This document shows, one piece after another, positions 3 through 26,733 of a stretch of 64,000 nt of DNA (its first letter is position 1; each line of letters begins with the position of its first letter). The position numbers were made by a program, and so were the translations under genes. The stretch covers positions 11,414 through 75,413 of the forward strand of contig NZ_CALXSK010000012.1 in NCBI RefSeq assembly GCF_944391105.1. Reading direction: 5' to 3'. The notes beneath the pieces are model-generated. The model was not told where the DNA came from, did not search any database, and saw only the letters and a list, made by a program, of their open reading frames with translations. The stretch comes from an uncultured Victivallis sp. (GTDB lineage Bacteria > Verrucomicrobiota > Lentisphaeria > Victivallales > Victivallaceae).

Positions 3-2411
3 CGCAAGGCGGAAGAAGCGCTCAAGGCGACCGAGATCGCCGGATTTGAAACGAATCTTCTGCTGCTGCGCGACGTCCTCGGCATGGCGCCGTTCCGCGA
101 GGGGCGGGCCGGGACCTGGCTGCTGAAGGAATATGTCTATTCTGCGCCGACGTTTGAAATTCTCTCCCCTGGAACGCAGACCACGGTGCAGGATTATCCC
201 GGCCGTCTCGGTTACTGGGCGGTCGGCGTTCCGCCGTCGGGGCCGATGGATGCGTACAGTTTCCGGCTGGCCAACCGGATCGTCGGGAACGCGCCGGAGG
301 CTCCGGGGCTGGAGATGACGCTTTCGGGCGCCTCGCTCCGTTTCAACACGGATGCGCTCTTCGCTCTGACCGGCGGAGAGTTTCCGGCGACCCTGAACGG
401 AACGGAGATTCCCCGGAATACACCGGTCTCTGCGAAGAGGGGCGATGTGCTCAAAGTCGGCACGACCCGCTGCGGGCAGCGCTGTTATTTCGCCGTTGCC
501 GGCGGAATCGACGTGCCGGAGTACCTCGGCAGCCGTTCGACGTTTACGCTCGGCCGGTTCGGCGGACACGGGGGGAGGGCGCTCGCCGCGGGCGACGTGC
601 TCCATATCGGCAACTGGAAGGTTTCCGAACCGCTGTCTCCGGCGGCAGCTGCCGTTCCGTCCATCGGGAACAGCTGGAAGATCGCCGTTCTTTACGGGCC
701 GCACGGCGCGCCCGACTACTTCACGGATGAAGACATCGAAGAGTTCTTCCGGGCGGAATGGGAGGTTCATTACAACTCCTCGCGCACCGGCGTCCGGCTG
801 GTCGGCCCCCGGCCGAAGTGGGCGCGTCCGGACGGCGGAGAGGCCGGACTGCATCCGTCCAATCTGCATGACAACGCCTACGCCGTCGGAACGATCGACT
901 TCACGGGCGACATGCCGGTGATTCTCGGCAAGGACGGGCCGAGCCTCGGCGGGTTCGTCTGTCCGGCGACGATCATCACGGCGGATCTCTGGAAAGTCGG
1001 GCAGCTCCGCAGCGGCGACAAGGTGAAGTTCGTCCCCGTCACTCCGGCGCAGGCCGCTGAACGTCGCGAGGCGCTCGAAGCGATTCTGGAGCACCCGGAA
1101 AAGGCGGATCATCCGGTCGCGGAACCTGTCGGCACGGTTCCCGGGTCGCCGGTTCTTGCGGAGTTTCATCGTGAGGACGCCATGTCGCACATCGTCTGCC
1201 GCCAGGACGGAGACGCGAATTTCCTGCTGGAGTTCGGGCCGCCGGTCATCGATTTGCGACTCCGCTTCACGGCGCACGCGTGGATGCTGAAACTCGAAGA
1301 GATGCACCTTCCGGCGATTCTCGACATCACGCCGGGAATCCGTTCGATTCAGATTCATTTCGATCCGGCGAAGATGACGCAGGAGGAACTTCTGAAGTTG
1401 ATCGCCGCTCTGGCGGAGAAACTCAAAACGGAGACGATCCGCTCGGTTCCGACCCGCACGGTCTATCTGCCGCTGAGCTGGGACGACCCGGCGACACGTC
1501 TCGCGATTCAGAAGTACGTCAGCACGGTTCGTCCGGACGCCCCCTGGTGCTGCCCGAACAACATCGAGTTCATCCGCCGGATCAACGGGCTCGACTCCGT
1601 CGAGGAGGTCGCAAAGATCGTGTTCGACGCGAATTACATCGTAATGGGTCTCGGAGACGTCTATCTCGGTGCGCCGGTGGCAACGCCGCTGGATCCGCGC
1701 CGCCGTCTGGTCACGACCAAGTACAACCCCGCCCGGACCTGGACGCCCGAAAACGCCGTCGGCATCGGCGGCGCGTACATGTGCGTTTACGGGATGGAGG
1801 GGCCCGGAGGCTACCAGTTCGTCGGACGGACGGTTCAGATGTGGAACCGCTTCAACGTCACACCGGAATTCGAGGAGGGCAAGCCTTATCTGCTCCGATT
1901 CTTCGACCAGGTCCGGTTCTTCCCGGTCGAGGCGGATGAACTGCTGAAAATCCGGCGCGACTTCATCGCGGGGAAATATCATATCCGCATGGAAGAGAGC
2001 GTGTTCGACATTCAGGAATATGAGAAGTTCCTCGAGGAGAACGCCGCTTCCATCGAGGCTTTCGAGACAAAGCGGAAACAGGCTTTTGAAGAGGAGAAGG
2101 CGCGCTGGATCGCCAACGGTCAGCTCACTTTCGAGAGCCATACGGTCGAAAGCGCCGCGCCCGCGGAGGAGGCCGAGTTGAAACCCGGTGAGAGCGGGGT
2201 TTACTCGCCGGTTGCCGGCAGTCTCTGGAAGCTGAACATAACCGAACCCGGCAAACGAGTGCGCGCAGGAGAGATTCTCGCAGTACTCGAGAGCATGAAA
2301 ACCGAAATTCCGGTAGCCGCGGAATCCGACTGTGAAATCGTCCGGATCTTCTGTGCCGCCGGAAACGAGGTCAAGAGCGGACAGTGTCTGTTCGCAGTGA
2401 AGACGAATTGA
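3..2411 (+). CDS. uca: Urea/guanidine carboxylase (biotin-dependent), 5' end outside the window
   Basis: Frame is open from base 3 (RKAEEALKATEIAGFETN, tail of the biotin carboxylase domain). Carboxyltransferase motifs PPSGPMD, GGHGGRAL, HPSNLHDNAY and GPGGYQFVGRT; C-terminal biotinyl domain LESMKTE; upstream of atzF. Confidence 0.93.
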   Translation, partial: RKAEEALKATEIAGFETNLLLLRDVLGMAPFREGRAGTWLLKEYVYSAPTFEILSPGTQTTVQDYPGRLGYWAVGVPPSGPMDAYSFRLANRIVGNAPEAPGLEMTLSGASLRFNTDALFALTGGEFPATLNGTEIPRNTPVSAKRGDVLKVGTTRCGQRCYFAVAGGIDVPEYLGSRSTFTLGRFGGHGGRALAAGDVLHIGNWKVSEPLSPAAAAVPSIGNSWKIAVLYGPHGAPDYFTDEDIEEFFRAEWEVHYNSSRTGVRLVGPRPKWARPDGGEAGLHPSNLHDNAYAVGTIDFTGDMPVILGKDGPSLGGFVCPATIITADLWKVGQLRSGDKVKFVPVTPAQAAERREALEAILEHPEKADHPVAEPVGTVPGSPVLAEFHREDAMSHIVCRQDGDANFLLEFGPPVIDLRLRFTAHAWMLKLEEMHLPAILDITPGIRSIQIHFDPAKMTQEELLKLIAALAEKLKTETIRSVPTRTVYLPLSWDDPATRLAIQKYVSTVRPDAPWCCPNNIEFIRRINGLDSVEEVAKIVFDANYIVMGLGDVYLGAPVATPLDPRRRLVTTKYNPARTWTPENAVGIGGAYMCVYGMEGPGGYQFVGRTVQMWNRFNVTPEFEEGKPYLLRFFDQVRFFPVEADELLKIRRDFIAGKYHIRMEESVFDIQEYEKFLEENAASIEAFETKRKQAFEEEKARWIANGQLTFESHTVESAAPAEEAELKPGESGVYSPVAGSLWKLNITEPGKRVRAGEILAVLESMKTEIPVAAESDCEIVRIFCAAGNEVKSGQCLFAVKTN

Positions 2412-2417
2412 ACCTCG

Positions 2418-2462
2418 TCCGCTCCGCGTTGCCACGCCGGCCGACGCGGAACGCGGAGCGGA
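2418..2462 (+). repeat. 13-bp perfect inverted repeat (hairpin) between uca and atzF
   Basis: tccgctccgcgtt (2418-2430) and aacgcggagcgga (2450-2462), 19-nt loop, no U-tract. Confidence 0.7.
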
Positions 2463-2485
2463 AAGAGGGAAAGGAGAGAGACACG

Positions 2486-4240
2486 ATGAGAAGTTGCGAA
2501 TTGTCGATTGCCGCACTCAGGCGGGCTTACCGGAGCGGTTCAAAGACCCCGCGCAGCGTTCTTACAGAACTGCTCGACGCATGTGCCGCCGCTCCGGACG
2601 GGATCTGGATTTCCCTGATCGGCCGGGGGCAGCTGGAGGGCTGGATCGCCAGACTTGAGGCATCTTCACCGGAGGAGCTTCCGCTCTACGGGATTCCATT
2701 TGCCGTGAAGGACAATATCGATGTGGCAGGATTGCCGACGACGGCGGGGTGTCCGGATTACCGTTATCGGCCGGAACGTTCCGCACGGGTGGTGGAACTC
2801 CTGATCGAAGCCGGAGCCGTTCCGCTCGGCAAGACGAACATGGATCAGTTCGCCACCGGTCTGGTCGGCGTCCGTTCTCCCTACGGGGCGGCGCCGAACC
2901 GTCTGGCGCCGGGATACGTCTCCGGCGGATCGAGCAGCGGATCGGCCGCGGCGCTGGCGTATGATCTGTGCAGTTTTTCTCTGGGAACCGATACGGCGGG
3001 GTCGGGCCGGGTTCCGGCGGCGTTCAATGAACTCGTCGGGGTGAAGCCGAGCCGGGGAGTTCTGAGCTGCCGCGGCGTGGTGCCGGCCTGCCGCTCGCTC
3101 GACTGCGTTTCGATCTTCGCCCGGAATCTCGAAGATGCCGGAATCCTGCTGGAAACGACCGCACGCTTCGACCCGGAGGATGCCTACAGCCGAATTCTGC
3201 CGGAACGCGATCCGCTGCCGCGCCACTGGAAATTCGGCGTTCCGCGGGAGGAGGATCTCGTGTTCTTCGGCCGGGAGGAGTACCGGGAGGCGTTTCGTCG
3301 CGCGGTACGGCGGATGCAGGATGCGGGGGGCGAAAAAGTGGAGATCGATTTCACCCCGTTTCTGACGGCGGCTCGGCTGCTCTACGAAGGCCCGTGGGTG
3401 TTTGAACGTTACGCGGCGGTCGGGGAATTCATTGAAAAGCATCCGGATTCGGTGCTGCCGGTGATCCGGTCGATCATCACGCCGGAGCAGACGCCGCATC
3501 CGTCGGAGGTGTTCCAGGCGATGTACCGTCTGCAGGAGTGCAGGGCGGCGGCGGACGCGCAGTTTGCGGCGGTGGATCTGATCCTCACGCCGACCGCCGG
3601 AACCATCTACCGGATCAACGAGGTCAAAGCCGATCCGATCCGGCTCAACAGCAATCTCGGATACTACACCAACTATATGAACCTGCTGGACTGTTCGGCG
3701 CTGGCCGTTCCGGCGGATCGCGCCGGAGATCTTCCATTCGGTATCACGCTGGTGGGGAAAGCGTTCGATGATTACAAACTTCTGGAAGCGGCCCGCCGTT
3801 TCCGGAGCGCGGGGCGGTTTCCGATCGCGGTCTGCGGCGCGCATCTCGCCGGAATGCCGCTGCACCCGGAGCTTGAGGCGCTCGGCGCGCGCTTTCTCGG
3901 CAGCGCGAAAACCGCTCCATGCTATCGGATGTACGAGTTGGAGGAGGGAGGCGCCCGCCCGGCTCTGCTGCGAACCGGCAAAGGGGGCGTGTCCTGCTAT
4001 GTGGAAATCTACGAGCTTGAAGCGGAGTCCTTCGCCGGATTCGTGGCAGGAATCCGTCCTCCGCTCGGGCTCGGCACTCTGGAGCTGGCGGATGGACGGC
4101 GGGTGCCGGGATTCATCGGGGAGGCGGTCATCGCGGAATATGCGCCGGACATCTCCGACGTCGCCGACTGGCGTGTCCGGGTGAAAGAACGGAAACGAAA
4201 ATCACATCGAGACTCCTCTCATGACAACACTCTATCGTAA
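2486..4240 (+). CDS. atzF: Allophanate hydrolase
   Basis: Amidase signature GIPFAVKDNID, GGSSSGS and LGTDTAGSGRVPA; C-terminal IAVCGAHL domain; AAGGAG RBS before ATG 2486. Confidence 0.93.
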   Translation: MRSCELSIAALRRAYRSGSKTPRSVLTELLDACAAAPDGIWISLIGRGQLEGWIARLEASSPEELPLYGIPFAVKDNIDVAGLPTTAGCPDYRYRPERSARVVELLIEAGAVPLGKTNMDQFATGLVGVRSPYGAAPNRLAPGYVSGGSSSGSAAALAYDLCSFSLGTDTAGSGRVPAAFNELVGVKPSRGVLSCRGVVPACRSLDCVSIFARNLEDAGILLETTARFDPEDAYSRILPERDPLPRHWKFGVPREEDLVFFGREEYREAFRRAVRRMQDAGGEKVEIDFTPFLTAARLLYEGPWVFERYAAVGEFIEKHPDSVLPVIRSIITPEQTPHPSEVFQAMYRLQECRAAADAQFAAVDLILTPTAGTIYRINEVKADPIRLNSNLGYYTNYMNLLDCSALAVPADRAGDLPFGITLVGKAFDDYKLLEAARRFRSAGRFPIAVCGAHLAGMPLHPELEALGARFLGSAKTAPCYRMYELEEGGARPALLRTGKGGVSCYVEIYELEAESFAGFVAGIRPPLGLGTLELADGRRVPGFIGEAVIAEYAPDISDVADWRVRVKERKRKSHRDSSHDNTLS

Positions 4241-5054
4241 CATTCGAACCCGCGAAGAACTTGACGCGGCTTACGACAATACACGCGCCGTCGCCGACTG
4301 TGCGCGGATTCTCGCCGGCTTCGAGGAGCGCAGCCGTCTCATCGCGGAACAGTACCCGGAGGAGCTGAATTTGCGCTTCGGATCGCGGGAGCGGCAGCGG
4401 ATTGATTTTTTCCGTGCCGGTTCTCCCGGCGCGCCGCTTCTGGTGTTCATCCACGGCGGCTACTGGCAGATGCGTCGCAAGGAGACCTTCCGGTTTCTGG
4501 CCGCGGGAGCGCTTCATCACGGAATTTCAGTGGCGCTGCCGGGGTATACGCTGGCGCCGGAACAGAATCTGGCCGGAATCGTTATGGAGATTCGCGATGC
4601 GCTGCGCTGGCTGCGGGAACACGCCGACGCTCTTGGATTCGACCGTTCCCGGATCGTCGTCGCCGGCTGGTCGGCGGGCGGACATCTCGCGGCCATGGCG
4701 GCCGACGAACCGGGCGTAACCGGGGTCCTTGCGATCAGCGGAATCTTCGATCTGGAGCCGATCCGTCTCTGCTATCTGAACGATAAACTTCAGCTGAAAC
4801 CGGAAGAGGTTGATTCCCTGAGTCCGCTTCGACTTCCCCTGTCGAAGAAAACACTGTTCGCGGTCTGCGGCTCGGACGAGCTGCCGGAACTGCAGCGCCA
4901 GAGCTGGGATTTCGCCCGGCATCGGGCCGCGGCGAAACTTCCCGGAGGCGCGTTCACGCTGGCCGGGCGCAACCACTTCACGATTCTTGAGGAGCTTGAG
5001 ACTCCCGGCGGAGTGATCACGACTCTGCTGCGGATGCTGCTTCCCTCGCTCTGA
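4221..5054 (+). CDS. Alpha/beta hydrolase (arylformamidase/kynurenine formamidase-like, HSL fold)
   Basis: FIHGGYW oxyanion motif and GWSAGGHL nucleophile elbow; overlaps the atzF end by 20 nt. Confidence 0.85.
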   Translation: MTTLYRNIRTREELDAAYDNTRAVADCARILAGFEERSRLIAEQYPEELNLRFGSRERQRIDFFRAGSPGAPLLVFIHGGYWQMRRKETFRFLAAGALHHGISVALPGYTLAPEQNLAGIVMEIRDALRWLREHADALGFDRSRIVVAGWSAGGHLAAMAADEPGVTGVLAISGIFDLEPIRLCYLNDKLQLKPEEVDSLSPLRLPLSKKTLFAVCGSDELPELQRQSWDFARHRAAAKLPGGAFTLAGRNHFTILEELETPGGVITTLLRMLLPSL

Positions 5055-5113
5055 CCGTTTCTCCTCCCGCAATGTACGAGATAAGCCTTTGTGGCTGTCC
5101 GGCTTGCGGGAGG

Positions 5114-5153
5114 ACAATTTTGTTAAACGAAGAGTTTTCTTTCACAATTTTGT
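5114..5153. promoter_or_regulatory. Two ACAATTTTGT palindromic boxes, 30-bp period: candidate enhancer (UAS) for a sigma54 activator
   Basis: Identical 10-mers at 5114-5123 and 5144-5153; same core and period as the boxes at 26630-26673. Confidence 0.65.
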
Positions 5154-5244
5154 CGCACGATTCGTTCTGAATCTGCGTTGAAACCGGAACCCCATCGCCG
5201 TTTTTTCCGGGAAAATTACGATTTTTCATCCTTTTTCCTCAAGT

Positions 5245-5260
5245 TGGCATTCTTTCTGCT
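5245..5260 (+). promoter_or_regulatory. Candidate sigma54 -24/-12 promoter of the secretin pair
   Basis: TGGCATTCTTTCTGCT, GG-N10-GC spacing. Shares AAGTTGGCA and TCTGCT with the glnA promoter. An overlapping extended -10 (TGCTATAAC) is an alternative reading. Confidence 0.6.
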
Positions 5261-5330
5261 ATAACACTGGTATCCGCGGCGTCCGATTCCGGGCGCCATT
5301 GGGTCAACCCGTAAACCAGGAGGTAGCCGA

Positions 5331-6752
5331 ATGAAATGCATCAACCCATGGAAGCTCGCGGCCCTGTTGTGCACGCTGCCCGCGCTGCTCTGCGCGGAAG
5401 AGGGCAATCAGCGGACCATCGTATTCAACGAGGATCGCAATCAGCACTACATGACCACCAAAGTCTACGAACTCAAAAACGTCCGGGCTCACGACCTGAT
5501 GCCGTTCGTACGCGGAGCGGTCAAACGATTCGACAGCCAGTCACGGGTCCAGAGCGTCGATTACGCCAGCGGCGGGAAGCAGTTTCTCGTCGTCTCCACC
5601 GGGAGCACGTTTCTCCCCTGGGTCGATGAAATGATCGCCACACTCGATTATCCATCCCCGAAAGTCGACGAATCCGGGGCGCGCATCGAGGGTGACGGCA
5701 TCAGCCGCTGGGTCTATGCGCCGGTTCATCGCGGCAGCGAAACGATGTACAAGGCGCTCGAACAGGTGTTCACCTCCGCCGGAGGGGAGGGGGCGTCTTT
5801 CTACGATGCACCGAGCAATCTGTTCTATTTCAAGAGTTCGAAATCCCAGGGGGAAGCGTATCTCTCGCTGTTGAAGACGCTCGATCGTCCGGTTCCGCAG
5901 CTTGAGGTGAAGTTCGATGTCTACGTCGTAAGTGACAACGACTTCCGCGAACTCGGGCTCGATTATCTCTCGTGGAAGAACGGACCCGGAGCGCAGCTGC
6001 TTTCGACCGGATTCAACTTCGCGGACCTCGATGCGGATTTCGATTCGCTTGGACCGGAGGCGTTTGAAAGCATTCTCGGTTTCCTGCCGAATTCCGTGAA
6101 CGGCGTCGGCGGCATTCTGGTTGCTCCGAACATCGATGCGACGTTTCTGCGGATGCTCGCCCAGAAGGGGAAGGCGTGGACCGCATCGTCCGGATCGCTT
6201 ACGCTGATCAACAGCTTCGATCCGGCGGCGAACGACACCGGGGAAGGGGTGTTCCGACTGGCATTTGCCCCGGAATTCCAGAACATCGTGAAGGACGAGA
6301 ATCAGACCATTGCGATCGGCGCACTGGCGGAATCGAGCTTTGAGTTCGAGTTTTACGCTCCGTCCATCAACTTCACCGCTGATCCATCGGAAGGGAAACT
6401 CACGCTCATGAGCAACTGGAGTCTGACGATCAACTCCCTGGCGGAAGTCGACAACGTCGGAAACGCCTCGATCGAAAGCAACCGCTTTTCCGGAAGTCTC
6501 ACACTCGACACCGGCGTGGAGAAACTCGTCGGCGCATTCGACAAGCATGTGATGGTCGAACAGTATATCGGCATGCCGTTCCTCGGAAGCATTCCGGTGC
6601 TGAAGTATCTGTTCGGTTCGGAAAGCAAGGTCGACAGCAAACTCAAGGTCTTCGTCACAATGACCGCCAAGCCGGTTGAGACGGAGAATCTTCCGGCCCC
6701 CGCCGCCGGAAAGGTGATCGACACATTGACCGCCATGAACAAGGCTGAATAA
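5331..6752 (+). CDS. Secretin-family outer-membrane protein, paralogue 1
   Basis: Signal peptide; N3-like repeat YELKNVRAHDL; secretin start LDRPVPQLEVKFDVYVV; C-terminal GMPFLGSIPVLKYLFG; AGGAGG RBS. Confidence 0.8.
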   Translation: MKCINPWKLAALLCTLPALLCAEEGNQRTIVFNEDRNQHYMTTKVYELKNVRAHDLMPFVRGAVKRFDSQSRVQSVDYASGGKQFLVVSTGSTFLPWVDEMIATLDYPSPKVDESGARIEGDGISRWVYAPVHRGSETMYKALEQVFTSAGGEGASFYDAPSNLFYFKSSKSQGEAYLSLLKTLDRPVPQLEVKFDVYVVSDNDFRELGLDYLSWKNGPGAQLLSTGFNFADLDADFDSLGPEAFESILGFLPNSVNGVGGILVAPNIDATFLRMLAQKGKAWTASSGSLTLINSFDPAANDTGEGVFRLAFAPEFQNIVKDENQTIAIGALAESSFEFEFYAPSINFTADPSEGKLTLMSNWSLTINSLAEVDNVGNASIESNRFSGSLTLDTGVEKLVGAFDKHVMVEQYIGMPFLGSIPVLKYLFGSESKVDSKLKVFVTMTAKPVETENLPAPAAGKVIDTLTAMNKAE

Positions 6753-6769
6753 GGAAAGGAGTAATTCAA

Positions 6770-8395
6770 ATGGTTTTCAATCCGAAACTTACATCGGGTG
6801 TTCTCGCCGCGTTTCTCGTTTCGGGGAAACTCTGTGCGGGAACCGTGGATATCCCGACTCCACCGGCGCTTCCGACCCAGGTTCAGCCGCAGCTGAACGT
6901 GTCGATCGACAAGTCGACCGACGAAATCACGTTCATCAATACGAACAACGATCCGTATGTCTATACGAAAGTGTATAAACTCAAGCATGCAGATCCCTAC
7001 GAGATCCGGCCGTATCTGATGTCGGCCATCCGGTCCCGGCGGATCGACACGAACGAGACGAAAGTAGAAGCGATCAAATATGTCGACGGCACCGGAATGG
7101 TGATCGTCTCGGCGGAACAGTACCGCTTTGAAAAACTCGACAACGGAATGACCATCGACCAGGTCGTCGAGATGCTGGATCGACCCGATCTCTCCGCACA
7201 GGCCGGACGCCGCTTCTTCGTCTACTATGCGAAATATTTCGATGCGACGACGCTGGCGAAACTGATTGAACAGGTCGGAATCATGCACGCCGACGATGCC
7301 GTCGAACTCGACGGAGTGGACACTGTTCGACCGGACAACGGCATGAACGCACTGCTGTTCTTCTGTACGCCGATTTCTCAGAAGAACATCGAAGCTCTGC
7401 TCGCGCAGTACGATACGCCGCTCTCGGAAGCGCTGTTCACCTATACGATCTATGAGATCGACAGCGAGAACGACGGCAATCTCGGAGTCGATTTCCAGGC
7501 GTGGAAGAACGGTCCCGGCGCTGATCTCTTCGCAGCGGGAGCAACCTATCTGAACGGATGGGATCCGCTGATCGGAACGATCGGCAACGCAACGGAAATG
7601 GTCAAGGATGCCCATGTGAACTACATCAACTTCAATCCGAAGTGGAACGCGAAGTATCTGGACTTTCTCGTCAGCAAAAGCAAGGCGAAAGTGCTGACCA
7701 GCGGAACGCTGAATGTCTGGAACAAGGCGGTGGGCACGGTCGAGAGCGTGACCCGTTTCCCCGTCATCGGTGATGGAGAGACGGAGATTGCGGAAACCGC
7801 AAACGACACATCCGAAATCACCATTTCGATTCCGGGTCAGAGCGAACCTTTGACGTTGACCACGAACAAACCCGGCGAAACCACCGTCACGACCGTGAAA
7901 GAGAGCCGGCTGCGCAAAACCAATAACGCGGAATTCGGCTTCCGGATGGAACTTCTGCCCGAAGTTTACGGTGAGTCGACAATCGTCCGGGTTGCGATGG
8001 AGAACACGAACCTGCTCGGATTCCACAGCGACGGGACTCCGCGCACCAGCCGAACCGAACTGGAGACCACGCTGCAGGTCAACAACAAGGGCAGCGTCTT
8101 CTACATCGGCGGGTTGGAGAAGTCCGATCTGGTCCGAAGCGTGAGCAAGGTTCCGTTTCTCGGGGATATTCCGGGACTCGGGTGGCTCTTTTCGGGAGAG
8201 AGCGAAACGGTTAAAAAGAGCCGGATCGTGGCGGTCCTGACCGTCAACCCGGGAACACCCACAACCCGGATTCCCGGAGAAATCGAAACGCTCTCCGGAC
8301 AGACGAAGCGGAAAATCGAGGAGTTTGGTCTTAAATCCCTCGATGAAAACGAGTATGGATTTGATCAGATCGGTCTTGATCCGGATCGGCGTTAA
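6770..8395 (+). CDS. Secretin-family outer-membrane protein, paralogue 2
   Basis: Signal peptide; YKLKHADPYEI repeat; YDTPLSEALFTYTIYEI; C-terminal KVPFLGDIPGLGWLF secretin motif; AAGGAG RBS. Confidence 0.85.
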   Translation: MVFNPKLTSGVLAAFLVSGKLCAGTVDIPTPPALPTQVQPQLNVSIDKSTDEITFINTNNDPYVYTKVYKLKHADPYEIRPYLMSAIRSRRIDTNETKVEAIKYVDGTGMVIVSAEQYRFEKLDNGMTIDQVVEMLDRPDLSAQAGRRFFVYYAKYFDATTLAKLIEQVGIMHADDAVELDGVDTVRPDNGMNALLFFCTPISQKNIEALLAQYDTPLSEALFTYTIYEIDSENDGNLGVDFQAWKNGPGADLFAAGATYLNGWDPLIGTIGNATEMVKDAHVNYINFNPKWNAKYLDFLVSKSKAKVLTSGTLNVWNKAVGTVESVTRFPVIGDGETEIAETANDTSEITISIPGQSEPLTLTTNKPGETTVTTVKESRLRKTNNAEFGFRMELLPEVYGESTIVRVAMENTNLLGFHSDGTPRTSRTELETTLQVNNKGSVFYIGGLEKSDLVRSVSKVPFLGDIPGLGWLFSGESETVKKSRIVAVLTVNPGTPTTRIPGEIETLSGQTKRKIEEFGLKSLDENEYGFDQIGLDPDRR

Positions 8396-8406
8396 AAAAA
8401 CAAAGC

Positions 8407-8443
8407 AAACTTCCCGGGGAGAGTCTTCTCCGGGAAGTTTTTT
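8407..8443 (+). terminator. Intrinsic terminator after the secretin pair, possibly bidirectional
   Basis: aaacttcccg...cgggaagttt stem with inner ggaga/tctcc pairing, followed by a T-run; convergent gene downstream. Confidence 0.8.
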
Positions 8444-16382: not shown

Positions 16383-16943
16383 TCAACACAACAGAGCAAG
16401 CAGCTGACGCAGCCATTCGGGATGTGCAGGCCATGCCGGTGCAGTCACGATGTGGCCGTCAGTCACGGCGCCGGTCATCGGAAGATCGACGAATTCTCCT
16501 CCGGCAAGTTCGACCTCAGGTCGCACCGCCGGATAGGCGCTGATCCGTTTCCCGGCAATGACTCCGGCGGCAGCGAGCAGCTGCGGTCCGTGACAGACGG
16601 CTGCAATCGGCTTTCTGTGCCGGTCAAAGGCCCGGATCAGCTCGATGACCCGAACGTCGAGCCGCAGATATTCCGGAGAGCGTCCTCCCGGCAGGACAAG
16701 AGCATCGAAGTTCTTCTCCTCCACAAGGTTGAAGTCTCCGTTCAGCACAAAATTGTGGCCGCGCTTTTCGGAGTAGGTCATATCACCCTCGAAATCATGA
16801 ATCGCGGTTCGAATCACCTCCCCCGTCTTCTTCCCCGGTGCGACGGCTGTCACCTCGCTGCCGAAAATCTGAAGAGCCTGAAACGGAACCATCATCTCGT
16901 AATCTTCGACGTAATCGCCGGCAATCATCAAAATTTTCTTCAT
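16383..16943 (-). CDS. DJ-1/PfpI family protein
   Basis: [21 protein letters not shown] and AVCHGPQLL (catalytic Cys); AGGAGG RBS. Confidence 0.9.
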
Positions 16944-16970: not shown

Positions 16971-18506
16971 TCATTCTCCATCAACATACCACTCCGGAGT
17001 AATGCCGAGCCTGTTGATTTTATAATGAATCACACGCGGCGAAAGTCCGAGACTGCGAGCGGCCGCCGACATGTTGCCGGAGTTCCGCTTCAGGGCCTCC
17101 ACAATAAGCTCGCGTTCGTAGGAATCCACCAGAACGTTGAACGACGCCTTCCCGTCCGGCAGAAGCTGCGAGCCGGACTCCTTGCCGGTCTGCAGTGACG
17201 GCGGAAGATTGTAACCATGAATGCAATCGTCCTGTGCCGTGAGCACCGCCCGTTCGATGCAGTTCTCCAACTCCCGGACATTGCCGGGCCAGTGGTAGGC
17301 CATGAGCATGTTGATCGCGGGCGTCGAGAGACGTGACACCTTCTTGCCGTATTTCACATTCATCTTTTCGATGAAATGCTCCGCAAGCAATATGATGTCG
17401 CTCTTGCGCTTCGACAGATCCGGCATGACGATCGGAAAGATGTTCAGCCGGTAGTAGAGGTCTTCCCGGAAGAGTTTGCGGCTCATGAGATCCTCCAGAT
17501 TCCGACTCGTCGCCGCGAGAAACCGGACGTTCGACCGCAGCTCGACATTGCTGCCCACCCGCGAAAATGTGCGTTCCTGGATGAACCGCAACAGCTTTAC
17601 CTGCGTCTGAAGCGAAAGGTCGCCGATCTCATCGAGAAAGAGCGTTCCGCCGTCGGCAGCTTCGGCGCGTCCGATCCGACGGCCAACCGCCCCCGTGAAT
17701 GCGCCTTTTTCATGTCCGAAAAGTTCGCTTTCGACCAGGTTTTCCGGCAGCGCCGCGCAGTTCAGACAGACGAACGGCTTATCCTTCCGGCTGGAGAGAT
17801 TTACAATTGCGCGGGCGACGAGCTCCTTGCCGGTTCCGGAACTGCCGCGGATCAGCACGGTTGCATCGGACGGCGCGACCTGACGGATCAACTCGTACAC
17901 CTGCTGCATGGCGCGGCAGTTGCCGACCATTTCGCCGGGATTCTCCGAGAGCATCTCACGCAGTTTGCGGTTCTCTTCGAGCAGACTTTCGCGCTCTTCG
18001 TGCTCCTTCATAACGGCGGCGACGGCCTCGGCAGTGATATTGCCGATGATCTCAAGCAATGCCATGTCGTTCTCAAGATCGGTGTCCGGCGTGATAAGCC
18101 GGTCGATGCTCAAAGTTCCGATCACCTGTTCCAGGTGGATGATCGGCACGCAGATGAATGCGACCGGATCTTTGTAATCCCGTGATTTCGTGCGATTCAG
18201 AAAACGGTGGTCGCTGCGGATGTCGGGGATCAGATGCGGGCGGCCGGTTTCCGCGACGTGCCCGGTGATCCCCTCCCCCAGCCGATAGCGGCCAAGCTGT
18301 TTTTCCGTCGCGTCAAGTCCCTGTGACGCCTCAATGACGAGCATGTCGCCATGGCGCAGCGTGAAAGTCCCGCGCAACATTCCCATGCGGCGGTTCAACA
18401 CATCAAGCACCTTGTTGAGAACGGCATCGACGTTGCGCTCGTGCACAATCGCCGAACTGATCTCCTGCAGAACGGTGATTTCGGATTTTAATCGTTCATC
18501 CATCAT
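16971..18506 (-). CDS. NifA-like sigma54-dependent activator (GAF + AAA+ + Fis-type HTH)
   Basis: N-terminal GAF; Walker A GSSGTGKE; ESELFGHEKGAFTGA; LFLDEIGDL; FREDLYYRLN; WPGNVRELEN; C-terminal HTH AAARSLGLSPRVIHYKI. Confidence 0.93.
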   Translation of the reverse strand: MMDERLKSEITVLQEISSAIVHERNVDAVLNKVLDVLNRRMGMLRGTFTLRHGDMLVIEASQGLDATEKQLGRYRLGEGITGHVAETGRPHLIPDIRSDHRFLNRTKSRDYKDPVAFICVPIIHLEQVIGTLSIDRLITPDTDLENDMALLEIIGNITAEAVAAVMKEHEERESLLEENRKLREMLSENPGEMVGNCRAMQQVYELIRQVAPSDATVLIRGSSGTGKELVARAIVNLSSRKDKPFVCLNCAALPENLVESELFGHEKGAFTGAVGRRIGRAEAADGGTLFLDEIGDLSLQTQVKLLRFIQERTFSRVGSNVELRSNVRFLAATSRNLEDLMSRKLFREDLYYRLNIFPIVMPDLSKRKSDIILLAEHFIEKMNVKYGKKVSRLSTPAINMLMAYHWPGNVRELENCIERAVLTAQDDCIHGYNLPPSLQTGKESGSQLLPDGKASFNVLVDSYERELIVEALKRNSGNMSAAARSLGLSPRVIHYKINRLGITPEWYVDGE

Positions 18507-18538: not shown

Positions 18539-19780
18539 TCAGTCGAAAAGTGAGCTCGCGCAGATGCGCTCCACCGCTTCGACGGTGCGCTCCCGGTCTC
18601 CGAAAGCGGTCAGCCGGAAATATCCCTCTCCGCCCGGGCCGAATCCGACACCGGGGGTTCCGACCACACGGCATCGTTCCAGTAATGTATCAGCAAAACG
18701 CATGGAGTCAAGTCCTCCGGGAAGTTTCCACCAGATATATGGCGCATTTTCTCCGCCGAAGACGGTGTAACCCGCCTGCGAAAGCCCTTCACGGATGATC
18801 CGTGCATTCTCCATGTAATAATCGATCTGTTCGCGGATCTGCGGCTGCCCGGCCTCGGAATAAACCGCCTCAGCCGCCCGCTGAACAATATAGTTAACGC
18901 CGTTGAATTTCGTACACTGCCGCCGATTCCAGAGCGCATTCAGACTCTGGAGCGATCCATCGGAGGCGCGCCCCCGGAGCGCTTCCGGAACAACGGTGAA
19001 CGCACAGCGCACTCCCGTGAAACCCGCCGTTTTGGAGAACGATTTGAATTCGATCGCCACCTCCTTTGCTCCGGGAATTTCGTAGATGCTGTGCGGCAGT
19101 TCCGGATCACGGATGAAGGAGCTGTAAGCGCTGTCAAAGAGGATGATGCTCCCGTTCTCCTTCGCGTAAATGACCCATTTTGCCAGCTCCTCGCGCGGCA
19201 GAACCGTTCCGGTGGGGTTGTTCGGGCTGCAGAGATAGATGAGATCTACCGGCTGTTCCGGCAGCGCCGGGCGGAAACCGTTTTCCGCGGTGGCGGAGAG
19301 ATAGGTGATTCCCTCGAACCGTCCTGTCGCTCCGTCGAGTTCTCCGGAACGCCCGGCCATGACGTTTGTATCGAGATAGACCGGGTAAACGGGGTCTCCG
19401 ATCGCAACGCGGCTGCGGCCGTCGAAAATCTCCTGAATGTTCCCGACATCACATTTGGATCCATCGCTTACGAACACTTCATTTCGTTCAAGTTCAACGC
19501 CGCGCGGCGCATATTCGCCGCGGATGATCGCATCAATCAGGAAGTCGTACCCCTGTTCCGGTCCGTAACCGCGGAAGGTCTCGGGCGAAGCCATCTCGTC
19601 AACCGCGCGGTGCATCGCCTCGATGACGGCGGGGGCGAGCGGACGGGTCACGTCGCCGATTCCGAGCCGGATGATGTCGGCCTCGGGATGGGCGGCTTTA
19701 TAGGCGGCAACCTTCTTCGCCATCGCCGCAAAAAGATAGCTGCCGGGAAGTTTCAGATAATTCGAATTGATTTGCACCAT
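18539..19780 (-). CDS. dapL: LL-diaminopimelate aminotransferase
   Basis: [35 protein letters not shown] and [13 protein letters not shown] (PLP Lys). Confidence 0.95.
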
Positions 19781-19781
19781 T

Positions 19782-20612
19782 TCAGATCTTCTCCACAAGT
19801 TCTCCCCGGAACACCTCGACGGCGGGGCCGGTCATGTAAACGTGATTGTCCTCTTCGGAATACTCCACCTGAAGTTCGCCGCCGTCGAGCAGAACGGTCA
19901 CGCGCGAATCCGTGCGGCCGGAGAGCCGTCCCGCAACCGCCGTCGCGCAACTGCCGGTCCCGCAGGCGAGCGTGACGCCGCACCCCCGCTCCCAGACCCG
20001 CATCCGCACCATCTGCGGACCGCGGACCTCTGCGAATTCGACATTGATCCGCTCCGGAAATTGCGGATCGCACTCAAACAGCGGCCCCCACTGCTCCAGC
20101 TCGACGGTCCGGATATCAGGAACAAAAATGACCGCGTGCGGATTGCCCATCGAAACGCAGAACGCGGAAAATTCGCGTCCGCCGACATGCAGCTTCACGT
20201 CCCTGGCTTCCGATTCCGGGTTGCCGGTCACGGGGATCTCTCCGCGCCGCAACCGGGGTTCCCCCATGTCGACCCGCACCGTGCCGTTTTCGAGCACTTT
20301 CGGACGGACGATTCCCCCTTTCGTATGGAGTTCAAATTCGTTTCCGTGCGCGAGCATGCGTCGCTTGATGTAGAGACCGACGCAGCGGGTTGCGTTGCCG
20401 CACATCTCCGGTTCGGAGCCGTCGGCGTTGTAGATGCGCATCTCGAACGCATTGCCCGAGAGATGACGGATCGTCACGACGCCGTCTGCTCCGATGCCGA
20501 AATGACGGTCGCAGAGCCGCGCTGCTACACCGCGCATATCGAATGTGGAACTCTTCGGCAGCTCGGTCAGAATGAAATCATTGCCGAGCCCGTGCCACTT
20601 GGAGATTTTCAT
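19782..20612 (-). CDS. dapF: Diaminopimelate epimerase
   Basis: [34 protein letters not shown] and [19 protein letters not shown]. Confidence 0.96.
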
Positions 20613-22003
20613 AACGCACCTCCTGAAAGATAACGCTCCGCCTCCTGTGCGACGCTCCGTCCCGCCGCGATCGCCCGCACCACGAGCGACGCGCCGGAGG
20701 CGCAGTCACCGGCGCAGAAGATTCCACGTTCCGGAGCGGCCTGCACGCGCCCGCGCTCATCGACCTTGAGTCCGAGTTCCGCGGCGACTCCGTCGGCCGG
20801 AACGCCGATGAATCCCATTGCGAGCAACACGAGGTCGGCAGGAATGATCTCTTCCGACCCGGCCACCTCATGGAACCGGAGCGGTTTGCCGAGCGGAGAA
20901 AGTTCCCACTCAACCGTCACGGCCTCAATGCCGGTGACGTGCCCCTCATCATCGGAAAGGAACCGCTTCGATGCGAGATTCCACCGCCGTTCGCCTCCCT
21001 CCTTGTGGCTCGAACTCGTCCGGAGCATATAGGGCCACTGGGGCCACGGGGTCGAGGGGGAGCGGTTCACCGGCGGTTTCGGCATGATCTCGATCTGGAG
21101 GATCGATTCGGCGCCCTGCCGGATCGAGGTGCCGACACAGTCGCTGCCGGTGTCACCGCCGCCGATCACGACCACACGCTTCCCCGTCGCGCAGACCGGA
21201 AGATCCGCGCATTCGCGGCCGATAACGCGATTCTGCCCCTGGAGGAATTCGAGCGCAAAATGGATCCCTGCGGCCTCACGGCCCGGAATTTTCAAGTCGC
21301 GTGCCATCGGCGTGCCGATGGCGAGAACGACCGCGTCATTGCGGCGCGCAAGGTAATCGCCCGAGACGTCGCGCCCGACCTCGGTGTTGAGTTCAAACCG
21401 GATTCCGGCTTCACGCATGAGGTTGATCCGGCGGTCGATGATCTTTTTCGCAAGTTTGAAATCCGGAATGCCATAGCGCAGCAGACCGCCGGGAGAGGCG
21501 TTCTTTTCAAAAACCGTCACCTCGTGTCCCGCGAGATTCAGTGCCGCGGCGACGGCAAGCCCTGCGGGGCCCGCACCGATCACGGCCACGCGGCGGCCCG
21601 TACGTTTTGCCGGAATGAGAGGCTTTACGAAACCACTGCGGAATGCGGTTTCGGTCACGGCCTTCTCCAGCTGCCGGATCATGACCGGCTCGCTGTTGAT
21701 GCCATCCGTGCAGGACCCCTCGCACAAAGCGGGGCAGATCCGGCTGGTGAACTCGGGGAACGAACTCGTCGAGGAGAGGATATCCCACGCTTTCTCCCAG
21801 TTTCCGGCCCCCGCGGCCGCGTTGATCTCGGGGATCACATTGCCGAGCGGGCAGCCGGTTCCGTGGCAGAACGGGATGCCGCAGTTCATGCAGCGTTCCG
21901 CCTGCCCCTTGAGTTCATCGAACGAAAGAGTGCGTTCGACCTCATCAAAATCCCGGCGGCGCAATTCGACCGGGCGGTATATCTCCTGAATTCTCTGATT
22001 CAT
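20609..22003 (-). CDS. gltD: Glutamate synthase small subunit
   Basis: RCMNCGIPFCH, CPLGN, RICPALCEGSC, VAVIGAGPAG and VVIGGGDTGSDC. Confidence 0.95.
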   Translation of the reverse strand: MNQRIQEIYRPVELRRRDFDEVERTLSFDELKGQAERCMNCGIPFCHGTGCPLGNVIPEINAAAGAGNWEKAWDILSSTSSFPEFTSRICPALCEGSCTDGINSEPVMIRQLEKAVTETAFRSGFVKPLIPAKRTGRRVAVIGAGPAGLAVAAALNLAGHEVTVFEKNASPGGLLRYGIPDFKLAKKIIDRRINLMREAGIRFELNTEVGRDVSGDYLARRNDAVVLAIGTPMARDLKIPGREAAGIHFALEFLQGQNRVIGRECADLPVCATGKRVVVIGGGDTGSDCVGTSIRQGAESILQIEIMPKPPVNRSPSTPWPQWPYMLRTSSSHKEGGERRWNLASKRFLSDDEGHVTGIEAVTVEWELSPLGKPLRFHEVAGSEEIIPADLVLLAMGFIGVPADGVAAELGLKVDERGRVQAAPERGIFCAGDCASGASLVVRAIAAGRSVAQEAERYLSGGAL

Positions 22004-22031
22004 TGTCGTATCTCCTTACAGATTCCGCACT

Positions 22032-26569: not shown

Positions 26570-26585
26570 AGCAATTATCGTGCCA
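26570..26585 (-). promoter_or_regulatory. sigma54 -24/-12 promoter of the gltB operon
   Basis: Minus strand reads TGGCACGATAATTGCT, a full match to TGGCACG-N4-TTGCW; AAAGGAG RBS downstream. Confidence 0.9.
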
Positions 26586-26629: not shown

Positions 26630-26673
26630 TTACAAAAATGTAAAATCCCGCCATGACTCTTACATTTTTGTAA
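26630..26673. promoter_or_regulatory. Two TTACA-N4-TGTAA palindromes (30-bp period): shared enhancer of the divergent gltB and glnA promoters
   Basis: ttacaaaaatgtaa (26630-26643) and ttacatttttgtaa (26660-26673) are exact reverse complements of each other, centred between the two sigma54 promoters. Confidence 0.8.
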
Positions 26674-26717: not shown

Positions 26718-26733
26718 TGGCACGCAATCTGCT
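26718..26733 (+). promoter_or_regulatory. sigma54 -24/-12 promoter of the glnA operon
   Basis: TGGCACGCAATCTGCT, GG-N10-GC; AGGAGG RBS before ATG 26781. Confidence 0.87.

What the first reader, a model, noticed from the sequence alone, without database searches (positions are those of the whole stretch)
5114..5260. Secretin operon carries the same enhancer/sigma54 design as glnA and gltB: a predicted nitrogen-regulated secretin system
Seen: two identical ACAATTTTGT boxes (5114, 5144; 30-bp period), then AAGTTGGCATTCTTTCTGCT with GG-N10-GC spacing. The gltB/glnA intergenic region 21 kb away has two ACA-N4-TGT boxes with exactly the same period (26632, 26662), and the glnA promoter reads AAGTTGGCACGCAATCTGCT. 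Rough chance estimate for ACAWWWWTGT at 60% GC is about 0.25 copies per 64 kb. I noticed six, four of them in 30-bp pairs before sigma54-like elements. Established: sigma54 promoters need an AAA+ activator bound to paired upstream sites. Inference: the secretins belong to the nitrogen-assimilation regulon, probably of the NifA-like gene at 16971-18506. I do not know of a stand-alone secretin pair wired into nitrogen control.
Basis: partly seen in the sequence, partly recalled or inferred. Interest (0 to 1): 0.85.

Follow-up and report, generated by a model that had tools for sequence, protein, structure and literature searches.

The report
Nitrogen-controlled secretin pair in Victivallis
In this gut Victivallis bacterium, two outer-membrane secretin genes sit behind the same sigma-54 promoter and paired enhancer boxes as the core nitrogen-assimilation genes, a link also seen across the phylum (sometimes beside the ammonium transporter genes), so the secretin channel is probably switched on by nitrogen starvation.

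Summary
ACAATTTTGT lies at 5114 and 5144, 30 bp apart. TGGCATTCTTTCTGCT (GG-N10-GC) lies at 5245-5260, 71 nt before a two-gene secretin operon (5331-8395).

The window comes from an uncultured Victivallis sp. (Lentisphaerota). In its 3.7 Mb genome the box plus sigma-54 design occurs at six promoters:
- glnA-III
- gltBD
- glnK-amtB
- gdhA
- a urea-type ABC / urea carboxylase operon
- this secretin pair

The sigma-54 element is invariant in 10 of 11 orthologous Victivallis promoters. The TATAAC "-10" is not conserved.

TTACA-N4-TGTAA pairs flanked by sigma-54 promoters are conserved upstream of glnA across Victivallales. In V. vadensis DSM 14823 (5.2 Mb) the perfect 14-mer occurs only at glnA/gltB, gdhA and the secretin pair.

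Among 80 Lentisphaerota secretin-pair loci, about 25 carry sigma-54 with boxes. Seven lie directly beside amtB-glnK, either on the same strand or divergent with a shared enhancer.

The likely activator is a GAF-AAA+-HTH protein, and this family stays linked to glnA/gltB across the order. A 62%-identical paralogue cannot be excluded.

No expression data could be obtained. I rate this a new variant of a known regulatory kind with an unexpected target.

The parts
5114..5123 (.). Distal enhancer (UAS) box ACAATTTTGT, centred about -152 from the predicted transcription start
   Evidence: Identical in the G011, G005 and G008 orthologous promoters although the flanks have diverged. Matrix score 14.9.
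5144..5153 (.). Proximal enhancer (UAS) box ACAATTTTGT, 30 bp (about 3 helical turns) from the distal box and centred about -122
   Evidence: Matrix score 16.3.
5201..5237 (+). Phased A/T tracts (T6 at 5201, A4TT at 5212, T5 at 5223, T5 at 5233), a possible intrinsic bend between enhancer and promoter
   Evidence: Read directly from the sequence. The bending role is an inference.
5245..5260 (+). Sigma-54 (-24/-12) promoter TGGCATTCTTTCTGCT, with a predicted transcription start near 5271
   Evidence: TTGGCA-N7-TGCT is invariant in 10 of 11 orthologous promoters. rpoN is present. No sigma-70-like promoter was found in 4900-8700.
5278..5297 (+). 8-bp hairpin in the 5' untranslated leader
   Evidence: Substitutions in G008 keep the pairing. 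The fold is not significant against shuffles (z = -1.1).
5331..6752 (+). Secretin A (473 aa, Sec signal peptide, two N-terminal ring-type domains plus a divergent secretin domain)
   Evidence: Pfam Secretin E = 8.6e-7. The family profile matches pIV, PilQ and GspD. AlphaFold model pLDDT 70; top Foldseek hits are GspD, InvG and PilQ, E down to 9e-15.
6770..8395 (+). Secretin B (541 aa), 23% identical to secretin A; both carry WKNGPGA and the C-terminal PFLG.IP.L..LF motif
   Evidence: Pfam Secretin E = 2.3e-20. PDB GspD E = 4e-13. Pairwise comparison.
8408..8443 (.). Bidirectional intrinsic terminator (about 11-bp GC-rich stem, A-run before and T6 after) that closes the two-gene operon
   Evidence: Read from the sequence.
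3..5054 (+). Upstream on the same strand: urea carboxylase (C-terminal part), allophanate hydrolase and an alpha/beta hydrolase. This is the tail of an operon starting with a box plus sigma-54 promoter 6.3 kb before the window (G000 C12:5052/5110)
16971..18506 (-). GAF-AAA+(GAFTGA)-HTH_8 enhancer-binding protein, last gene of the gltB-gltD-dapF-aminotransferase run; candidate activator
   Evidence: Synteny with glnA/gltB across Victivallales.
18539..26522 (-). gltB, gltD, dapF and an aminotransferase, tightly spaced, driven by the minus-strand sigma-54 promoter
26570..26585 (-). Sigma-54 promoter of gltB (TGGCACGATAATTGCT)
   Evidence: Conserved across genomes.
26632..26671 (.). Two TTACA-N4-TGTAA boxes (26632-26641 and 26662-26671) shared by the divergent gltB and glnA promoters
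   Evidence: Consensus over 14 genomes is TTTTACAAAATTGTAAAA-N13-TTTTACAATTTTGTAAAA.
26718..26733 (+). Sigma-54 promoter of glnA (type III glutamine synthetase, 26781-28913)

Best explanation
The secretin A/B operon (5331-8395) is transcribed from a sigma-54 promoter (5245-5260, start near 5271). That promoter needs an AAA+ enhancer-binding protein, assembled on the two palindromic boxes at 5114 and 5144.

The boxes sit on the same face of the helix, 30 bp apart, about -152 and -122 from the start. The intervening phased A/T tracts probably loop the DNA.

The same enhancer motif (consensus TTACA-N4-TGTAA, core ACA-N4-TGT) and the same promoter class drive glnA-III, gltBD, glnK-amtB, gdhA and a urea-type ABC / urea carboxylase operon. 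The secretin pair is therefore a member of the nitrogen-limitation regulon of this Victivallis.

The activator is most likely a receiver-less GAF-AAA+-HTH protein. The best candidate is the one at 16971-18506, at the end of the gltBD operon, which would make it positively autoregulated. It presumably reads nitrogen status through its GAF domain (2-oxoglutarate and/or PII), as NifA-type proteins do.

Basis of each step:
- Shown by sequence, statistics and comparative analysis: the elements, their non-random co-occurrence, their conservation, the regulon membership pattern, and the genomic linkage of secretin pairs to amtB-glnK.
- Inferred: binding by this particular activator, induction by nitrogen limitation, and what the secretins do.

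My best guess for function is an outer-membrane conduit used for nitrogen scavenging. It could import nitrogen sources towards AmtB and the ABC transporter, or export scavenging proteins through one of the genome's many separately encoded T2SS/T4P-like machines.
For: Elements and their statistics:
- The elements are present, with 6 boxes against 0.2 expected.
- Genome-wide, 8 of 33 boxes lie 60-200 nt upstream of 6 of roughly a dozen strong intergenic sigma-54 promoters.
- The genes downstream of those promoters are a periplasmic binding protein that opens a urea carboxylase cluster, the secretins, glnA-III, gltB, PII followed by AmtB, and GdhA.
- rpoN is present. There are five true activators, two of them GAF type with GAFTGA.

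Conservation at the secretin promoter:
- TTGGCA-N7-TGCT is invariant in 10 of 11 Victivallis orthologous promoters, although the proteins are down to 56% identical.
- The TATAAC is lost even in 97-98% identical relatives.
- Both boxes are intact in 4 genomes whose flanks have diverged.

Conservation of the enhancer at glnA:
- The boxes and both flanking sigma-54 promoters are conserved in 14 genomes spanning several families.

V. vadensis DSM 14823:
- Perfect TTACAWWWWTGTAA sites occur only at glnA/gltB (2), gdhA (2, plus one with one mismatch at +30) and the secretin pair (1).

The 80 Lentisphaerota secretin-pair loci:
- 23 of 75 loci with enough upstream sequence have a box within 500 nt. 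The background rate predicts about 0.7 (19 boxes in 966 kb).
- 18 loci have sigma-54 plus a box. Several have 30-bp pairs or triplets.
- amtB and glnK lie next to the pair in 7 different assembled genomes. Four are on the same strand behind a box plus sigma-54 promoter. Three are divergent; L081 has two boxes between two outward-facing sigma-54 promoters.
- These features fall in at least 5 clades of the secretin A tree and are more clustered than any of 500 label shuffles.

Regulator:
- The GAF-type activator is 8.3 kb from glnA, at the end of the gltBD operon, throughout the family.
- It lies immediately next to glnA in G036, G040, G029, G033 and G037.
- The only receiver-type activator is an orphan between RNase G and yebC.
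Against: - There is no transcript, 5'-end or binding data.
- The secretin boxes have perfect cores but weak flanks (GGACA..TGTTA and TCACA..TGTCG). With a glnA-trained matrix they score 14.9 and 16.3, against 28 for glnA. About 1.5% of AT-rich 240-nt control segments reach 14.9.
- Among Victivallis orthologues, only 5 of 10 sigma-54 promoters have a strong box. G002, G006, G007, G010 and G017 have only half-site-like matches.
- A second GAF-type activator (C59, 62% identical, nearly the same recognition helix) exists. The activator fragment lying divergent from a boxed secretin pair in L059 resembles that paralogue more closely: 60% against 50%.
- A single similar palindrome lies upstream of the paralogue's own operon in G000 and in V. 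vadensis.
- Adjacency to the urea genes holds only in the closest relatives.
- About half of the secretin-pair loci in the phylum lack the design altogether, so it belongs to some subfamilies, not to all pairs.
Confidence: 0.72

Rival explanations
1. The sigma-54 promoter is real, but the secretin boxes are read by a different activator that carries a different signal, for example envelope or heat stress. The second GAF-type paralogue (C59:1744-3273) is the obvious candidate. On this view the resemblance to the glnA enhancer reflects related DNA-binding domains, not a shared regulon.
For: - The two paralogues have almost identical recognition helices.
- The flanks of the secretin boxes differ from the TTACA/TGTAA of the nitrogen genes.
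- A separate sigma-54 heat-shock set (dnaK, clpB, hsp20) uses a related GGGACA-N3-TGTCCC palindrome.
- The activator fragment in L059 is closer to the C59 type.
Against: - The spacing is N4 with a 30-bp pair, as at glnA and gdhA. It is not the N3 of the heat-shock sites.
- In more distant lineages the secretin boxes are full TTACA-N4-TGTAA.
- In those lineages the boxes are shared with, or in series with, amtB-glnK.
- In V. vadensis the secretin site is a perfect 14-mer, one of only five in the genome.
Confidence: 0.13
2. The boxes are operators for a regulator that is not an enhancer-binding protein, such as a global nitrogen repressor or activator of another family. It would act at the same promoters, while the sigma-54 activator binds elsewhere or acts from solution. 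The secretins would still be under nitrogen control, but by a different mechanism.
For: - The 14-bp palindrome is shorter than classical NtrC or NifA sites.
- A single similar palindrome lies about 45 nt before the start of the aminotransferase-activator operon on C59, where I found no sigma-54 promoter.
- That arrangement looks like an operator.
Against: - The boxes are almost exclusively tied to sigma-54 promoters, at distances of 60-200 nt.
- They occur in same-face pairs, and midway between divergent sigma-54 promoters. This is the classical enhancer geometry.
- NtrC likewise represses sigma-70 promoters through the sites it uses for activation (established knowledge).
Confidence: 0.08
3. 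The boxes and the GG-N10-GC are chance features of an AT-rich intergenic region. The operon would then be transcribed from a sigma-70 promoter (TATAAC) or by read-through from the urea carboxylase operon.
For: - The intergenic region is AT-rich.
- TATAAC overlaps the -12 element.
- The upstream operon is on the same strand and has no canonical terminator before 5114.
Against: - None of 100 shuffles reached the observed number of boxes.
- TATAAC is not conserved among relatives whose secretin A is 97-98% identical, whereas the sigma-54 element is invariant.
- No sigma-70-like promoter was found in 4900-8700.
- The design recurs in distant lineages.
- Read-through would in any case start at another box plus sigma-54 promoter.
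Confidence: 0.03

Closest known systems
NtrC-dependent glnAp2 promoter of enteric bacteria (sigma-54 with two upstream NtrC sites)
   Same: - A -24/-12 promoter with two dyad-symmetric activator sites about three helical turns apart, 100-150 bp upstream.
- The regulon covers glnA, amtB-glnK and nitrogen-scavenging transporters.
- The activator gene is linked to glnA and probably autoregulated.
   Different: - The site is TTACA-N4-TGTAA, not TGCACC-N5-GGTGCA.
- The candidate activator has a GAF domain instead of a phospho-receiver, and no NtrB-like partner is evident.
- gltBD and glnA share one enhancer between divergent promoters.
- The regulon contains a secretin pair.
NifA (GAF-AAA+-HTH activator of nif genes)
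   Same: - The candidate regulator has the same domain architecture and the GAFTGA motif.
- Its GAF domain is a plausible sensor of 2-oxoglutarate or PII.
   Different: - The genome has no nifH.
- The enhancer is ACA-N4-TGT, not TGT-N10-ACA.
- The targets are assimilation and scavenging genes.
Secretins of T2SS, T4P, T3SS and filamentous phage (GspD, PilQ, InvG, pIV)
   Same: - A C-terminal secretin domain and N-terminal ring-type domains.
- The fold matches GspD, InvG, PilQ and pIV.
   Different: - The genes are encoded as a stand-alone tandem pair of 23%-identical paralogues, with no adjacent ATPase, platform or pilin genes.
- The family has many paralogous pairs per genome in Lentisphaerota.
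- One subfamily is wired to nitrogen control and linked to amtB-glnK.
Sigma-54-controlled secretion and pilus genes elsewhere (e.g. PilR/RpoN type IV pilus genes; predicted sigma-54 promoters at T2SS genes including COG1450 in Myxococcia, PMC12316311)
   Same: Sigma-54 promoters in front of cell-envelope export components. This fits the view that sigma-54 controls the bacterial exterior (PMC3162934).
   Different: Those systems answer to dedicated two-component regulators and are not part of the nitrogen-assimilation regulon. Neither paper's main text mentions Lentisphaerota.

Membership tests
Sigma-54 (-24/-12) promoter | GG and GC dinucleotides separated by exactly 10 nt, within a TGGCAC-N5-TTGCW-like context | tested here: met
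   TGGCATTCTTTCTGCT at 5245-5260.
Sigma-54 (-24/-12) promoter | The organism encodes RpoN and at least one enhancer-binding protein with GAFTGA | tested here: met
   Sigma54_DBD hit at C32:27563-28039, 198 bits. Five activators, with GAFTGA in the window's protein.
Sigma-54 (-24/-12) promoter | The element is conserved at orthologous promoters while the surrounding sequence drifts | tested here: met
   Present in 10 of 11 Victivallis genomes. Recurs in distant Lentisphaerota.
Sigma-54 (-24/-12) promoter | Transcription starts about 12 nt downstream of the GC and depends on rpoN | not testable with these tools
Nitrogen (Ntr-type) regulon member | Carries the same upstream activator sites as glnA and other nitrogen-assimilation genes in the same genome | tested here: met
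   ACA-N4-TGT boxes lie upstream of the sigma-54 promoters of glnA, gltB, glnK-amtB, gdhA, the urea-type ABC operon and the secretins. The flank match at the secretins is weaker.
Nitrogen (Ntr-type) regulon member | Membership is conserved in related genomes | tested here: inconclusive
   - Strong boxes in 5 of 10 Victivallis orthologous promoters.
- A perfect site in the V. vadensis type strain.
- Robust pairs and amtB-glnK linkage in other lineages.
- About half of all secretin-pair loci lack the design.
Nitrogen (Ntr-type) regulon member | Induced under nitrogen limitation; the activator binds the sites | not testable with these tools
   Needs RNA-seq and EMSA or DAP-seq.
NifA family (the candidate regulator) | GAF + sigma-54 interaction AAA+ domain + Fis-type HTH, with no receiver domain | tested here: met
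   Pfam: GAF_2, Sigma54_activat, AAA_lid_14 and HTH_8.
NifA family (the candidate regulator) | Acts at TGT-N10-ACA enhancers upstream of nif genes | tested here: not met
   The enhancer is ACA-N4-TGT. No nifH over the cut-off in the genome. The protein therefore shares the NifA architecture and may work like NifA, but it should not be filed as NifA.
NtrC family (the candidate regulator) | N-terminal phospho-receiver domain with a cognate NtrB kinase | tested here: not met
   The glnA-linked activator has a GAF domain. The only receiver-type activator (C7:93426-94862) is an orphan between RNase G and yebC.
Secretin family | C-terminal secretin beta-barrel domain preceded by ring-building N-domains and a signal peptide | tested here: met
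   Pfam, PDB profile and sequence hits, model and Foldseek.
Secretin family | Encoded with its cognate T2SS, T4P or T3SS inner-membrane machinery | tested here: not met
   The operon has two genes and is closed by a terminator. None of the 11 T2SSE-type ATPase matches, from at least 8 genes, is on contig C12. Neighbouring genes vary between genomes.

The most novel reading that the evidence does not exclude
The nitrogen-regulated secretin pair is not an export gate. On this reading it is a starvation-induced outer-membrane entry pore, possibly a hetero-oligomer of A and B.

It would feed ammonium, urea or other nitrogen sources to AmtB and the ABC transporters. Lentisphaerota would then have repurposed secretins as regulated nutrient channels, with different paralogous pairs serving different nutrients. 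One example is the pair at C2:92239-95359, which is followed by an amino-acid permease.
Probability: 0.2. Interest if true: 0.85.

Novelty: new variant of a known kind. Interest (0 to 1): 0.62.

Why it matters
Nitrogen control in Lentisphaerota, and in the PVC bacteria generally, is essentially undescribed. My literature searches found no paper linking Victivallis to sigma-54 and none describing a nitrogen-controlled secretin.

This locus defines three things:
- a compact, conserved sigma-54 regulon;
- a new enhancer motif, TTACA-N4-TGTAA;
- a probable activator of GAF type with no receiver domain.

It also places an unexpected target in that regulon. Secretins are known as gated export channels for pili, phage and folded proteins. 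I know of no case where one is co-regulated with, or sits in an operon with, ammonium transport.

If the link holds, it assigns a physiological context to the many orphan secretin pairs of Lentisphaerota. It also opens the question of how these bacteria move nitrogen sources, or scavenging enzymes, across their outer membrane.

The hypothesis can be tested directly, because V. vadensis DSM 14823 is cultured and carries the same design.

Tried and rejected
- **First alignment of orthologous promoters.** It was meaningless, because genome-search loci are not re-oriented for minus-strand matches. I repeated it correctly.
- **Sigma-70 alternative (TGCTATAAC).** Rejected. It is not conserved and has no -35 partner.
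- **Urea-gene adjacency as a conserved feature.** Rejected. It is present only where the secretin A orthologue is 97-98% identical, L031 and L032.
- **A common gene neighbourhood around boxed secretin pairs.** Nothing is consistent apart from amtB-glnK.
- **A known RNA element in the leader.** No Rfam match in the window's leader or in the long leaders of distant homologues.
- **The boxes at 16747 and 26383 as regulatory sites.** Rejected as intragenic. The box at 26383 is the H-K-I-V codons of gltB.
- **C42:27840 with 'TGGCAGGAGGCATGCT'.** Judged to be chance, because the promoter-like string lies inside a coding sequence.
- **Deciding between the two GAF-type paralogues.** Not resolved. Synteny favours the window's gene; one distant locus favours the other.
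- **Reading a gating state from the structure.** The monomer model (pLDDT 70, low confidence over residues 212-266, which include WKNGPG) is too weak to say whether the pore is gated.
Full report
**1. The observation**

The sequence is as described.
- ACAATTTTGT occupies 5114-5123 and 5144-5153.
- AAGTTGGCATTCTTTCTGCT occupies 5241-5260, with GG at 5246-5247 and GC at 5258-5259. This is a correct sigma-54 -24/-12 spacing.
- The first ATG of a 473-aa ORF is at 5331.
- The gltB/glnA intergenic region has ACAAAAATGT at 26632 and ACATTTTTGT at 26662, followed by AAGTTGGCACGCAATCTGCT.

ACAWWWWTGT occurs six times in the window against 0.20 expected, and none of 100 shuffles reached six.

TGGCACGATAATTGCT lies on the minus strand at 26585-26570 and faces gltB. 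The two glnA boxes therefore lie midway between divergent sigma-54 promoters.

The two unpaired boxes are intragenic.
- The box at 26383 is the H-K-I-V codons of gltB. It is conserved in relatives for that reason.
- The box at 16747 lies in a DJ-1/PfpI gene.

**2. What the genes are**

The two ORFs downstream of the promoter are both secretins (Pfam).
- Secretin A (5331-6752) is the more divergent. A profile of its family matches phage pIV, PilQ and GspD.
- An AlphaFold model of A (pLDDT 70) finds GspD, InvG, PilQ and pIV by Foldseek.
- Secretin B (6770-8395) matches GspD directly.
- A and B are 23% identical over their whole length.

A strong bidirectional terminator at 8408-8443 closes the operon.

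Upstream on the same strand lie urea carboxylase, allophanate hydrolase and an alpha/beta hydrolase. Reading the contig beyond the window shows that these form the tail of a larger cluster. That cluster runs from an ABC transporter through two urea-carboxylase-associated proteins to urea carboxylase. It starts with its own box plus sigma-54 promoter.

The titles of near-identical public contigs identify the organism as an uncultured Victivallis sp., in Lentisphaerota, Victivallales.

**3. The regulon in this genome**

The assembly is 3.72 Mb with 58.5% G+C. It has 33 ACAWWWWTGT boxes and 45 TGGCA-N7-TGCW strings.

Eight boxes lie 60-200 nt upstream of six strong intergenic sigma-54 promoters. 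The genes behind these promoters are:
- the urea-type binding protein that opens the urea cluster;
- the secretin pair;
- glnA-III;
- gltB;
- a PII gene followed by amtB;
- gdhA.

Position alone would put about 0.1 boxes in such places.

The other strong sigma-54 promoters have no such boxes. dnaK, clpB and hsp20 carry GGGACA-N3-TGTCCC-like palindromes instead. A divergent promoter pair beside another activator on C42 has none.

The genome encodes RpoN and five true enhancer-binding proteins:
- two GAF-AAA+-HTH paralogues, 62% identical;
- one orphan receiver-type protein;
- two atypical proteins.

The genome has no nifH.

**4. Conservation at the secretin promoter**

In 11 Victivallis genomes with an orthologous pair (56-98% protein identity), TTGGCA-N7-TGCT is invariant in 10, while the rest of the region is barely alignable.
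- TATAAC is already lost in relatives whose secretin A is 97-98% identical.
- Both boxes are intact in four genomes, including G008, whose flanks differ.
- No sigma-70-like promoter is detectable in 4900-8700.

A matrix trained on glnA sites gives the following scores:

| Site | Score |
|---|---|
| Secretin boxes, this window | 16.3 and 14.9 |
| V. vadensis secretin site | 21.2 |
| glnA boxes | about 28 |
| AT-rich control segments, 99th percentile | 15.9 |

Five genomes have only half-site-like matches. The promoter is therefore clearly conserved. The enhancer is conserved in part of the genus and is of moderate quality in this window.

**5. Conservation of the enhancer at glnA**

In 14 genomes from several genera and families the glnA upstream region reads TTTTACAAAATTGTAAAA-N13-TTTTACAATTTTGTAAAA. 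It sits between a reversed and a forward sigma-54 promoter. The motif is thus the nitrogen enhancer of Victivallales.

In the cultured type strain V. vadensis DSM 14823 (5.2 Mb), perfect TTACAWWWWTGTAA sites occur at only three loci:
- glnA/gltB, two sites;
- gdhA, two sites plus a third with one mismatch at +30;
- the secretin pair, one site 225 nt upstream.

**6. The wider family**

Secretin pairs are a multi-copy family in the order, with several pairs per genome. I examined 80 loci from public Lentisphaerota genomes.
- 23 of 75 loci with enough upstream sequence have a box within 500 nt. Background predicts about 0.7.
- 18 loci combine a box with a sigma-54 element.
- Many have 30-bp pairs or triplets, for example L052, L059, L086, L098 and L099.

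Seven loci from seven different assemblies place amtB and glnK directly beside the pair.
- In L091, L066, L048 and L047 the order runs from box and sigma-54 promoter, through amtB and glnK in either order, to secretin A and B.
- In L081, L050 and L052 amtB, with glnK where the contig extends far enough (not in L052), diverges from the pair.
- In L081 (secretin A 60% identical to the window's) two boxes lie between two outward-facing sigma-54 promoters. This is the gltB/glnA design again.

About 0.2 such adjacencies would be expected by chance.

On a maximum-likelihood tree of secretin A, these features fall in at least five clades. They are more clustered than in any of 500 label shuffles. About half of the loci, including this genome's other two pairs, lack the design.

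**7. The regulator**

The window's GAF-type protein ends the tightly spaced gltB-gltD-dapF-aminotransferase run.
- Its orthologues keep this position, 8.3 kb from glnA, throughout the family.
- In other families a member of the same protein family lies immediately beside glnA: G036, G040, G029, G033 and G037.

Against certainty:
- The paralogue on C59 has a nearly identical recognition helix.
- One distant locus (L059) has a C59-like activator fragment lying divergent from a boxed secretin pair.
- A similar single palindrome lies before the paralogue's own operon in two genomes.

I put the window's gene at about 60%, the paralogue at about 25%, and other proteins at the remainder.

**8. Mechanism**

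*Shown here:*
- the cis-elements, their geometry, their statistics and their conservation;
- the gene content of the regulon;
- the linkage of the pair to amtB-glnK.

*From established knowledge:*
- Sigma-54 holoenzyme forms closed complexes and needs ATP hydrolysis by an upstream-bound AAA+ hexamer.
- Paired same-face sites nucleate that hexamer.
- GAF domains of NifA-type proteins sense 2-oxoglutarate or PII.

*Inferred:*
- Nitrogen limitation activates the GAF-type protein.
- That protein binds 5114 and 5144, loops over the phased A/T tracts (5201-5237) and opens the promoter at 5245-5260.
- The weaker flanks of the secretin sites suggest lower affinity, so induction may come only under stronger limitation. 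This is speculation.

*Function of the secretins:* unknown.
- The amtB/urea linkage, and an amino-acid permease behind a paralogous pair, point to nitrogen scavenging across the outer membrane.
- The direction could be import. It could equally be export through one of at least eight separately encoded T2SS/T4P-type machines.

**9. Comparison and novelty**

The design works like enteric glnAp2 with NtrC. It differs in three ways:
- a different site;
- a receiver-less GAF-type activator, which has the NifA architecture but not NifA's site or targets;
- a secretin pair as a target.

The literature I searched has sigma-54 promoters predicted at T2SS genes in Myxococcia (PMC12316311) and sigma-54 described as a controller of the cell exterior (PMC3162934). 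I found nothing on Lentisphaerota and nothing on a nitrogen-controlled secretin.

Verdict: real, non-random and conserved. This is a new variant of a known regulatory kind with an unexpected and testable target. Expression and binding remain unproven.

Noticed in passing
G000 C10:37400-37620, C33:13900-14250 (minus), C32:2250-2450 (outside the window): dnaK, clpB and an hsp20 gene have strong sigma-54 promoters preceded by GGGACA-N3-TGTCCC-like palindromes. This looks like a separate sigma-54 heat-shock regulon. The second GAF-type activator is a candidate regulator. It fits the sigma-54 chaperone enrichment reported for Planctomycetota and Bacteroidota in PMC12316311.
   Followed up: partly
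L090, L095, L098, L099, L064 (upstream of secretin A): In these distant homologues the sigma-54 promoter reads TGGCATGATAAAAGCT. It is followed by a leader of about 250 nt containing a conserved 5-11 codon ORF that begins M(M)RQ(Q) and has its own ribosome-binding site. No Rfam family matches. It could be a glutamine-codon leader peptide.
   Followed up: partly
G000 C2:92239-96969: A paralogous secretin pair without nitrogen boxes is followed on the same strand by an APC-type amino-acid permease. This is a second case of a secretin pair next to an inner-membrane nutrient transporter.
   Followed up: no
G000 C59:431-440 and G015 C26:5350-5363: A single palindrome (GTGACAAATTTGTCAAC in G000, TGACAAAATTGTAA in G015) lies upstream of the aminotransferase + second GAF-type activator operon in both genomes. 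In G000 it is about 45 nt before the start, and I saw no sigma-54 promoter there. It may be an autoregulatory operator.
   Followed up: partly
G000 C55:16600-17400: An array of at least nine short palindromes centred on CAAAATTG, at intervals of roughly 30-40 bp, in an apparently non-coding stretch. It accounts for several of the genome's ACAWWWWTGT hits. Its nature is unknown.
   Followed up: no
window 26383-26392: ACAATTTTGT inside gltB is the reverse complement of the codons for H-K-I-V. It is conserved in relatives about 250 nt from the real enhancer. It is a coding coincidence that inflates the box count.
   Followed up: yes
window 5063-5113: A 10-bp inverted repeat, CCTCCCGCAA ... TTGCGGGAGG, with a 31-nt loop. 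It lies between the stop codon of the alpha/beta hydrolase gene and the first box. It may be a weak terminator or insulator between the urea operon and the secretin promoter.
   Followed up: no
G000 C42:480-2241: Two divergent sigma-54 promoters (C42:505 minus, C42:651 plus) lie next to an activator with an unfamiliar N-terminal domain of about 200 aa. No nitrogen boxes are present.
   Followed up: no
L086:5554-7976: In one Victivallaceae genome the boxed secretin promoter is divergent from a gene whose product begins with the MCGIVGY motif typical of GlmS, the glutamine-consuming glucosamine-6-phosphate synthase. I did not confirm this with a family search.
   Followed up: no
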